Of a stretch of DNA of 64,000 nucleotides, positions 8,031 to 10,427 are shown piece after piece. The translations under genes and the position numbers were made by a program. The first letter of the stretch is position 1, and every line of letters starts with the position of its first letter. Origin of the DNA: Eledone cirrhosa (Eukaryota); the NCBI GenBank assembly GCA_964016885.1, contig OZ024743.1, positions 71,734,001 through 71,798,000 of the forward strand, written 5' to 3'. Under the pieces are notes generated by a model. The model saw only the letters and a list, made by a program, of their open reading frames with translations, did not search any database and was not told the origin of the DNA.

Positions 8031-8669
8031 GATAGTTTAAAAAAACAACACCTCACTCGACATAATATCGCTACCCCCTCCATCCTACACCACTCTCTTC
8101 CTGCAACACCCACCCTATTTCGGTCTTCCTTATAGTACTGAGTTTATTTAACTACTCTTTACCTACTTGCTTCGTATGTATGAATGCATGTATATGTATG
8201 CATTTGTGTATATATATATATATATGTATATATATATATATATATATATATATATATATATATATATATATATATATGCATATATATATACATACATATA
8301 TATGCATATACACATATTTATATATACATATATATATATATATACATATATATACATATATACATACATACGTACATACATACATAAATATATATATATA
8401 TATGTATATATATATATATGTGTATATATATATATATATATATATATATATATATATATATATATATATATATATATATATATATAAAAGTATATATTAC
8501 ACAAAGAGAAGTGTGTTACACAGTGAGATGTGTGTAAAGAATATTACAAGTGATTTTACCGTTACTGTATAGGGAACAATATCTACAGGTTAGCAATTAA
8601 ATAGAAAAAAAACAATTCAGAATCAAATCTCTGGATTAGAGTTTTAAATCACAAACCTTATAACTATAT

Positions 8670-8744
8670 TTTGCTGATACGAATCTCGCTTCGTTTCACC
8701 ACTTATATGTGCAGTATCAGTTCACAGGATCCTCAGTCAGCAAA
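8670..8744 (-). ncRNA. type I hammerhead ribozyme
   Basis: Reverse-complement copy of 9717-9791 with the core intact. Confidence 0.8.
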
Positions 8745-9716
8745 TGCGAACACTGAACACTACACATCTAACCTCATGGATAGAGAGATTGCAAATAGAC
8801 ACGCTGGCCAGAGTAGGGCGAAATCACGTGTTATTTGAATGAAATAACGGTTCACATGGATTGGGGAAGATGCTAGAAAGTGCAGCCCAAACCATTCGAA
8901 TTATTAGCTCAACAATTTGGACCTCATTAAGTATACAAAGGTCGGAATTAAGAGTATTCCGCAGTTCACTGTAATAATAATAATAATAATAATAATAGTA
9001 TTAGCTCAAAGAAGAATAGAGAATTTCCTTCTGAGCTCAAATGCAAGTATATATTACACAAAGAGAAGTGTGTTACACAGTGAGATGTGTGTAAAGAATT
9101 ATTACAAGTGATTTTACCGTTACTGTATAGGGAACAATATCTACAGGTTAGCAATTAAATAGAAAAAAACCAATTCAGAATCAAATCTCTGGATTAGAGT
9201 TTTAAATCACAAACCTTATAACTATATTTTGCTGATACGAATCTAGCTTCGTTTCACCACTTATATCCAGAGATTTGATTCTGAATTGGTTTTTTTCTAT
9301 TTAATTGCTAACCTGTAGATATTGTTCCCTATACAGTAACGGTAAAATCACTTGTAATAATTCTTTACACACATCTCACTGTGTAACACACTTCTCTTTG
9401 GGTAATATATACTTGCAATTGAGCTCAGAAGGAAATTGTCTATTCTTCTTTGAGCTAATACTATTATTATTATTATTATTATTATTATTACAGTGAACTG
9501 CGGAATACTCTTAATTCCGATCTTTGTATACTTAATGACCTCTAAATTGTTGAGCTAATAATTCGAATGGTTGGGCTGCACTTTCTAGCATCTTCCCCAA
9601 TCCATGTGAGCCGTTATTTTATTCAAATAACACGTGATTTCGCCCTACTCTGGCCAGCGTGTCTATTTGCAATCTCTCTATCCATGAGGTTAGATATGTA
9701 GTGTTCAGTGTTCGCA

Positions 9717-9791
9717 TTTGCTGACTGAGGATCCTGTGACCTGATACTGCACATATAAGTGGTGAAACGAAGCTAGATTCGTATCAGCAAA
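9717..9791 (+). ncRNA. type I hammerhead ribozyme
   Basis: tttgctga-CTGAGGA-long stem II-GAAA-cgaa(gctaga)ttcgt-A-tcagcaaa. 8-bp stem I, 5-bp stem III, GUA site. Confidence 0.85.
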
Positions 9792-10427
9792 ATATAGTTA
9801 TAAGGTTGGTGATTTAAAACTCTAATCCAGAGATTTGATTCTGAATTGGTTTTTTTCTATTTAATTGCTAACCTGTAGATATTGTTCCCTATACAGTAAC
9901 GGTAAAATCACTTGTAATAATTCTTTACACACATCTCACTGTGTAACACACTTCTCTTTGTGTAATATATACTTGCATTTGAGCTCAGAAGGAAATTCTC
10001 TATTCTTCTTTGAGCTAATACTATTATTATTATTATTACAGTGAACTGTGGAATACTCTTAATTCCGATCTTTGTATATATATATATATATATATATATA
10101 TATATATATATATATATATATATAATGAATCAAAACATATCAAATATACTTAGAATTTTGTTTCTCAATAACTCAATAAGTAAACTCCATAGGTTTTATC
10201 TAGAGCCATAATGACCAAATGAAAAGTTATGTTTATATAGGTAGGGAGAGGGCCACATATAGTGCACGAAACACGGTATACTCTATATATTCCAAATAGA
10301 TATTCTATAGAACGTATATATGTATGTGTTTGTATATGTATATATATATAAATAAATAAGTAAATAAATAAATAAACATATATATATATATATATATATA
10401 TATATATATTATATATATATATATATA

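What the first reader, a model, noticed from the sequence alone, without database searches (positions are those of the whole stretch)
8488..10075. Tandem ~558-bp ribozyme monomer present in both orientations: candidate circular-RNA retrozyme
About 1.4 monomers on one strand are joined to about 1.45 on the other, with no ORF and one HHR per monomer. Partial tandems are expected from reverse transcription around a circular or multimeric RNA. The monomer is longer than the few-hundred-nt metazoan retrozymes I recall, and its HHR has a proper 5-bp stem III, so it could act as a monomer.
Basis: partly seen in the sequence, partly recalled or inferred. Interest (0 to 1): 0.75.

Follow-up and report, generated by a model that had tools for sequence, protein, structure and literature searches.

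The report
Two-armed Penelope-copied hammerhead retrozyme
This is one insertion of a non-coding ~550-base repeat with a hammerhead-ribozyme motif that occurs at hundreds of TA-repeat sites in this animal genome as back-to-back arms ending at two fixed points, and it was likely copied by a Hydra-type Penelope retrotransposon enzyme from a probably circular RNA that has not yet been detected.

Summary
In detail: a minus arm (8488-9266, 1.39 units) and a plus arm (9265-10078, 1.45 units) of a 557-560-bp non-coding unit meet head to head inside a (TA)n tract. Each arm carries one complete type I hammerhead motif.

In 107 genomic loci, 166 of 190 arms end at one of two fixed sites (A, B); inner ends are scattered. 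Of 76 head-to-head pairs, 55 are A+B and none A+A or B+B. This is the Penelope-like (PLE) 'tail' footprint. A GCTC..GAGC hairpin follows both sites and also follows the distal end site of three coding Hydra-type families here. No coding body belongs to the family.

Arms run through the ribozyme site without piling up there (93 of 100), with a clean junction (106 of 107), and no array of 3 or more units was seen. This favours a circular template but does not prove it. No RNA run was available. This locus has no arm with two complete ribozymes, and the catalytic fold is predicted to be disfavoured.

Verdict: a retrozyme-like non-autonomous PLE with an informative footprint. The scan already noted similar families on other DNA of this genome.

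The parts
8187..8487 (.). Left (TA)n-rich tract, target site
8488..9266 (-). Left arm, 1.39 units (unit positions 489->150); 3' end at fixed site A (8488)
9265..10078 (+). Right arm, 1.45 units (unit positions 1->266); 3' end at fixed site B; last TATA shared with the tract
9265..9266 (.). Central head-to-head junction, 2-nt overlap (AT)
   Evidence: family-wide microhomology
9265..9824 (+). One full unit (560 nt, 35% G+C, no ORF of 100 aa), used as reference
9717..9791 (+). Type I hammerhead motif: 8-bp stem I, CUGAGGA 9725-9731, enlarged stem II region, GAAA 9764-9767, stem III, GUA with predicted cut after 9783
8670..8744 (-). Second complete hammerhead motif (left arm)
9228..9266 (-). 3' half only of a third hammerhead motif, cut by the junction
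9975..10078 (+). 'Tail': the 104 nt between site A and site B, present at the right end only
   Evidence: inverted match stops at 9974; tail concept from PMC11167929 and PMC8557442
9981..10016 (+). GAGCTC..TTGAGCT hairpin just 3' of site A (candidate start signal); further copies at 9421-9456 (+) and 9038-9003 (-)
9537..9556 (+). Hairpin just 3' of an internal site B (family majority GAGCTCC..TTGAGCT; mutated in this copy); other mutated copy at 8925-8906 (-)
9925..9946 (+). AC-rich stem-loop just 5' of site A; copies at 9365-9386, 9073-9094 and 8516-8537
10075..10124 (.). Right (TA)n tract, target site

Best explanation
It is a non-coding, hammerhead-bearing repeat whose insertions have two back-to-back arms ending at two fixed sites in (TA)n, and it was likely copied by a Penelope-like (probably Hydra-clade) reverse transcriptase from a probably circular ~550-nt RNA. 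Steps: (1, inferred) a rare locus with two complete ribozymes in one arm is transcribed, cut twice and ligated to a circle. (2, inferred from PLE biochemistry, PMC11167929) the PLE protein cuts both strands of a (TA)n tract. (3, footprint shown; role of the hairpin inferred) one DNA end primes at site A and the other at site B, each about 9 nt 5' of a GCTC..GAGC hairpin. (4, shown as a length pattern) each cDNA runs a random length, mean about 310 nt, with no stop at the ribozyme site. (5, microhomology shown; pathway inferred) the two cDNA ends are joined through a few shared bases, giving the head-to-head palindrome with a tail at one end. My odds: non-autonomous PLE passenger about 0.9; Hydra-clade partner about 0.7; circular rather than linear template about 0.6.
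For: Fixed ends: 166 of 190 arms in 107 loci end at unit positions 144-153 (71) or 262-270 (95). Of 76 head-to-head pairs, 55 are A+B, 0 A+A, 0 B+B, and 21 have at least one other end. 154 of the 166 abut TATATA within 14 nt. The same two loose ends into (TA)n appear in contigs of public runs X1-X3, one sample, kind not on record. Read-through: of 100 arms reaching the GUA site, 93 pass it and 7 stop within 10 nt, like neighbouring bins; the junction reads TAT in 106 of 107 matched units out of 111 spanning. Arm lengths are roughly exponential; 17 of 101 exceed one unit. The longest arm seen is about 2.3 units, and no longer array was among 40 scored of 1115 candidates. Both arms of a locus share rare variants (27 of 269), as do units within an arm (16 of 178). 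Junction microhomology averages 2.25 nt in 59 pairs against 0.74 for random positions, 0 of 2000 simulations as high. Signal: GCTC..GAGC follows internal site A in 108 of 119 and site B in 46 of 55 copies. GCTCC-N6-11-GAGC follows the distal end site in three coding families (L237-type, L245-type, L291-type) and occurs only 20 times in 722 kb of those loci, true sites included. The L237 ORF (928 aa) has RWK, DKT, CxCx5C, CxxC and CxH, the Hydra diagnostics of PMC8557442 section 11. Hydra-type families here also have two ends about 130-170 nt apart. Stem I shows two-sided changes at 7 of 7 pairs across 35 related motifs.
Against: No RNA was seen, and neither cleavage nor a circle is shown. Only 4 of 190 arms (plus L176) hold two complete ribozymes, and this locus holds none. 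The catalytic fold is predicted about 11 kcal/mol worse than a mis-paired fold; stem II has two invariant C-G pairs without covariation; the core is intact in 69 of 89 copies. In an Anolis PLE, ribozyme cleavage was not needed for insertion in vitro and uncut RNA was the main substrate (PMC11167929), so an uncut multimer explains read-through equally well. No extended DNA homology to any coding family was found; the link is a 9-letter motif, and what follows the Neptune-type end could not be read. Two chimeras disagree: L249 fuses the unit to a Hydra-type ORF but is B+B, and L101/L175 fuses it to a Neptune-type element. The partner arm was closer than the nearest arm of another locus in only 8 of 62 pairs (19 ties, 35 further), so one shared template molecule is not shown. 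The stem I covariation is mostly between three related families, so it counts few independent events.
Confidence: 0.58

Rival explanations
1. Same PLE passenger, but the template is an uncut linear multimer (read-through of a partial tandem or an unseen master array), or unit-length RNAs joined by precise template jumps. The ribozyme is largely idle.
For: Read-through of the GUA site fits equally. The catalytic fold is predicted disfavoured. PLE insertion in vitro did not need ribozyme cleavage (PMC11167929). Eight of nine Xenopus retrozyme dimers did not cleave (preprint).
Against: The site-B hairpin lies 3' of the start and is not copied at the end. A linear transcript can therefore only give B arms at least 444-560 nt shorter than its source. 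B arms longer than one unit are 10 of 63 and reach about 1250 nt, yet no source of 3 or more units was seen among 40 scored of 1115 candidates. No added or lost bases at the junction in 106 of 107. The core is conserved across three related families.
Confidence: 0.3
2. The copies are only the truncated pseudo-LTR ends of a coding PLE whose body was not sampled.
For: Architecture identical to coding Hydra- and Neptune-type copies in this genome. Two chimeras with coding PLE sequence exist.
Against: Arms longer than one unit simply re-enter the unit. The free 5' flanks listed share no common continuation. The two chimeras join at different unit positions to different clades. Six to seven kb around 14 related-family hammerheads showed no attached ORF.
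Confidence: 0.06
3. The palindrome arose at DNA level (fold-back repair, hairpin replication) or is a sequencing or assembly fold-back.
For: The locus is a large inverted repeat between (TA)n tracts. Contigs of X1-X3 did not bridge this particular junction (uninformative).
Against: 75 of 107 loci are head-to-head, each with its own junction. Outer ends obey the A+B rule. Arms differ by about 3% and start at unrelated registers.
Confidence: 0.03

Closest known systems
Metazoan non-LTR retrozymes (Cervera and de la Pena 2020, PMC7229834; Li, Clavereau and Pollet, bioRxiv 10.64898/2026.07.22.740005)
   Same: Non-coding, low-GC tandem unit with one type I hammerhead per unit. PLE mobilisation through a circular RNA is proposed in both papers. 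Size lies within the 51-972 bp range of the preprint.
   Different: Above the 150-450 bp range of the 2020 paper. Mostly under two units per arm. Inserted as head-to-head A+B arms in (TA)n, with an enlarged stem II region. The word 'inverted' does not occur in PMC7229834. Cleavage and circRNA are not shown here.
Hydra-clade Penelope-like elements (Craig et al. 2021, PMC8557442)
   Same: (TA)n target, hammerhead near the 3' end, 5' truncation, partial tandems, inverted 5'-truncated copy, tail at one end. A GCTCC..GAGC hairpin after the distal end site is shared with three coding families here.
   Different: No RT/GIY-YIG ORF and no extended sequence homology. The tail is about 100-116 nt against the 30-40 bp described, though coding families in this genome have 130-170 nt.
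Poseidon PLE of Anolis in vitro (Frangieh et al. 2024, PMC11167929)
   Same: Two internal reverse-transcription start sites downstream of the hammerhead define the tail. AT-rich target cut on both strands. An AC-rich stem-loop lies at a start site.
   Different: There both strands used both starts without difference. Here the two arms of an insertion use one site each (55 A+B, 0 A+A, 0 B+B).
Non-autonomous Chlamys elements such as MRC1 (PMC8557442, passage)
   Same: Non-coding PLE passengers with pLTRs and head-to-tail copies.
   Different: Those generally resemble an autonomous family at their 3' ends and most Chlamys lack hammerheads; no such parent was found here.

Membership tests
Metazoan non-LTR retrozyme | Tandem unit with one type I hammerhead motif per unit | tested here: met
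Metazoan non-LTR retrozyme | No protein coding, G+C under 45% | tested here: met
   No ORF of 100 aa; 35% G+C
Metazoan non-LTR retrozyme | [quoted passage not shown] | tested here: inconclusive
   Not met at this locus (one complete per arm); met in 4 of 190 arms of the family and in L176
Metazoan non-LTR retrozyme | Monomer length in the known range | tested here: met
   557-560 nt: outside 150-450 bp (PMC7229834), inside 51-972 bp (preprint)
Metazoan non-LTR retrozyme | Self-cleavage of the RNA | not testable with these tools
   Folding model disfavours the catalytic fold; needs an assay
Metazoan non-LTR retrozyme | Expressed as unit-length linear and circular RNA | not testable with these tools
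   No RNA holder listed
Autonomous Penelope-like element | ORF with RT and GIY-YIG endonuclease | tested here: not met
   two unrelated chimeras only
Non-autonomous Penelope-like element | Variable 5' truncation, partial tandems, inverted 5'-truncated copy | tested here: met
Non-autonomous Penelope-like element | Two fixed 3' ends (tail) | tested here: met
   166 of 190 arms
Non-autonomous Penelope-like element | Sequence similarity to an autonomous family | tested here: inconclusive
   Only the GCTCC..GAGC hairpin is shared; no extended match in the 3' regions of the Hydra-type families sampled
Hydra-clade dependence | (TA)n insertion bias, and Hydra proteins present in the genome | tested here: met
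   154 of 166; 928-aa ORF with RWK, DKT, CxCx5C, CxxC, CxH. Neptune-type copies here also sit in (TA)n, so this does not single out Hydra.
Viroid-like replicating circular RNA | Ribozymes in both polarities of the unit | tested here: not met
   The motif scan finds the hammerhead in one polarity of the unit only; the two strands reflect the inversion

The most novel reading that the evidence does not exclude
A Hydra-type PLE protein uses a small GCTC..GAGC hairpin to set where reverse transcription starts. This retrozyme has duplicated that hairpin so that the two ends of one (TA)n break are primed at two different sites on a ribozyme-made RNA circle and copied round it. The genome would then record, base by base, the proposed circular route of retrozyme spread and the origin of PLE tails and inverted copies.
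Probability: 0.4. Interest if true: 0.72.

Novelty: new variant of a known kind. Interest (0 to 1): 0.5.

Why it matters
Two papers propose that animal retrozymes are moved by PLE enzymes through circular RNA, and the PLE literature leaves the origin of tandem and inverted structures open. This family gives a concrete footprint: one arm from each of two start sites, a shared candidate start hairpin, and intact-looking Hydra-type ORFs in the same genome. That turns the proposal into an in vitro test with a defined protein, RNA and target. A portable start hairpin would also matter for PLE-based insertion tools. The element class itself is known, and the RNA-level steps are unproven.

Tried and rejected
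Rfam: whole-window scan showed only microsatellite-driven miRNA hits among the 150 listed of 324; no hammerhead hit in 8500-10070.
RNA evidence: no RNA holder listed. Three runs of unrecorded kind, one sample, were laid as contigs; they did not bridge this locus's own junction, which proves nothing.
RNA-editing scars, a lead from note e1-8803865: no A>G excess on the RNA strand (5.5 per 1000 against T>C 9.3; rare variants 69 against 110; no clustered copy).
Pile-up of inner ends at the cut site: none. Correlation of the two arm lengths: not significant (rho -0.17, p 0.21, 55 pairs).
Master array: none among 40 scored of 1115 candidates; a lower-bound search.
Autonomous parent: BLASTN of the unit against 3' regions of 30+30+10+20 coding Hydra-type loci gave no extended match; 14 loci of related hammerhead families had no attached ORF.
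The start-signal pattern search returned, in the 100 listed of 138 matches, only this family's site-A hairpin.
Sequence after the Neptune-type 3' end could not be read; all 20 cases run into (TA)n.
The sigma-70 scan is irrelevant to an animal genome and gave chance level. A whole-unit fold is only mildly stable (z -2.2), not rod-like.
Look-up of earlier findings by sequence gave nothing.
Literature searches for retrozyme + octopus, hammerhead + cephalopod + Penelope, and PLE + circular RNA + twin priming listed no paper whose title or abstract start describes such a family. The library lacks most subscription papers, and supplements of PMC8557442 and the preprint were not seen.

Full report
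1. Observation. The region is as described. Against the unit 9265-9824, the left arm (minus, 8488-9266) covers unit positions 489->150 and the right arm (plus, 9265-10078) positions 1->266. They overlap by 2 nt and sit between (TA)n tracts. No ORF of 100 aa lies inside. A motif scan finds complete type I hammerheads at 9717-9791 (+) and 8744-8670 (-) and a 3' half at the junction. Rfam models do not pick them up. The window lies in a 3.0-Gb genome; earlier scan notes call it a cephalopod, which I did not test.

2. The ribozyme. A pattern built on the core gave 277 matches and 0 for the reversed control, covering this family and at least two related ones. In 35 aligned motifs, stem I has two-sided changes at 7 of 7 pairs, and 0 of 500 shuffles reach the covariation score; most changes are between families, so they are few events. 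Stem III has an invariant C-G and a G-C/A-U pair. Stem II begins with U.U and two invariant C-G pairs, then an insert of about 26 nt whose inner hairpin pairs in only 65% of cells. A U.U at the base of stem II is known from an axolotl retrozyme with weak monomer activity (PMC7229834, passage). The nearest-neighbour model puts the catalytic fold at -10.3 against -21.4 kcal/mol for a fold in which the core pairs with stem III's 3' strand; such models omit tertiary contacts. The fold is thus supported and activity is open.

3. The family. An exact 29-mer gives 226 matches; 41 of 61 close copies carry it exactly; DNA searches had 878-1401 first-look candidates. I estimate several hundred to about a thousand insertions. 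I mapped 107 loci: 40 distinct loci from the 60 returned by two best-score searches, and 67 from the first 100 listed pattern matches after dropping 3 duplicates. Arms under 28 nt were dropped, and L092 holds a duplicated insertion counted twice.

4. Ends. Of 190 arms, 71 end at unit positions 144-153 (site A) and 95 at 262-270 (site B); 24 end elsewhere. 154 of the 166 abut TA repeats. 75 loci are head-to-head; of 76 pairs, 55 are A+B, none A+A or B+B. The pattern set selects for the B region, so A+A is under-sampled there, but B+B is not. Inner ends are spread round the unit, and the junction shows 2.25 nt mean microhomology in 59 of the 76 pairs (those without a gap or a long overlap) against 0.74 at random. 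The same two loose ends appear in public contigs of one sample.

5. This is the PLE footprint. Craig et al. (PMC8557442; passages and section 11 read) describe 5' truncation, partial tandems, an inverted 5'-truncated copy and a tail at one end, and (TA)n targeting by Hydra. Frangieh et al. (PMC11167929; parts 1-2 of 4 read) show that the tail lies between two internal start sites of reverse transcription.

6. Which enzyme. Both sites have near-identical context: TATACTT, 3-5 nt, then a GAGCTC..TTGAGCTAATA hairpin, with GCTC 9 nt beyond each end. It is present in 108 of 119 and 46 of 55 internal copies. It lies 3' of the start, so it is not copied at the end itself. Coding Hydra-type families in this genome have two ends about 130-170 nt apart and short inverted arms. 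In three of three such families where the sequence beyond the distal end could be read, GCTCC-N6-11-GAGC follows within about 5-11 nt. The L237 ORF has the Hydra diagnostic motifs. Against this: no extended homology to any coding family, no readable Neptune control, and two chimeras that point to different clades (L249 Hydra-type but B+B; L101/L175 Neptune-type), which later deletions could explain.

7. Circle or line. A cut linear monomer would stop cDNA 191 nt (A) or 307 nt (B) from the start. It does not: 93 of 100 arms that reach the site pass it, with a clean junction in 106 of 107. Lengths are roughly exponential, mean about 310 nt, 17 of 101 over one unit, longest about 2.3 units. Because the B hairpin is lost at each end, linear read-through would shorten B arms by 444-560 nt per generation and needs master arrays of 3 or more units; none was among 40 scored of 1115 candidates. 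A circle made from the rare two-ribozyme arms (4 of 190, plus L176) resets this. An unseen array, or exact template jumps, remain possible, and PLE insertion in vitro did not need ribozyme cleavage. Arms and units within a locus differ by about 3% and share some rare variants, but the partner arm is usually no closer than the nearest arm elsewhere, so a single template molecule is not shown. No editing scars were found and no RNA run was listed. This locus has no two-ribozyme arm and both of its internal B hairpins are mutated, so it is likely a product, not a source.

8. Comparison and novelty. It works like a non-LTR retrozyme and carries the insertion marks of a PLE. Membership in retrozymes is met at DNA level for the family and untested at RNA level. 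Cervera and de la Pena (PMC7229834; passages and Discussion read) and Li et al. (preprint; parts 1-3 of 5 read; supplements not seen) already propose PLE mobilisation, so the class is known. In what I read and searched I did not find the one-arm-per-start-site rule or a shared start hairpin; supplementary files could bear on this. Earlier notes of this scan report the same pattern for other units in this genome, some possibly this family. They gave me the Hydra and hairpin lead, which I then tested; they are not independent support. Verdict: new variant of a known kind, interest 0.5.

Noticed in passing
window 57190-60060: Coding PLE with a CxxC linker (Neptune-type by my recalled reading of the motif) and GIY-YIG hit, inserted as two head-to-head arms in (TA)n. 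A small hammerhead motif at 59752 is present in the plus arm and deleted from the minus arm.
   Followed up: partly
window 32280-34577 (-): 5'-truncated Hydra-type PLE; its family has at least 150 close copies and two fixed 3' ends about 130 nt apart.
   Followed up: partly
window 1493(+), 2070(-), 10669(-), 13012(-), 38804(+), 40700(+), 56209(+), 57003(+): Further hammerhead-like motifs from the motif scan. 40700 has a 7-bp stem III and a long stem II region; 10669, 13012 and 38804 look like one family.
   Followed up: no
L131, L137, L142, L145, L151, L155, L163-L173: Related families share CUGANGA-UCC..CAC..GGU-GAAAC and a UAGUUAU motif 3' of stem I. In some the CAC could pair with GUG in the stem III loop (possible pseudoknot). 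No ORF attached in 6-7 kb.
   Followed up: partly
L249:200-2562 (with L289): Chimera: a Hydra-type RT/EN 3' part fused to 110 nt of the unit, head to head with a 1064-nt B arm. Template switch or later deletion.
   Followed up: partly
L175:3200-6990: Near-full Neptune-type element fused in its 3' UTR to a 1.4-unit arm of the family.
   Followed up: partly
L237, L238: Open 927-928-aa Hydra-type ORFs with near-identical inverted short arms: candidates for an active enzyme.
   Followed up: partly
window 49922-50944 (+): Fragment of a LINE-like reverse transcriptase (Pfam RVT_1, E 2.8e-6, below cut-off).
   Followed up: no
family-wide: T>C exceeds A>G on the RNA strand (9.3 against 5.5 per 1000; rare variants 110 against 69). 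Unexplained.
   Followed up: partly
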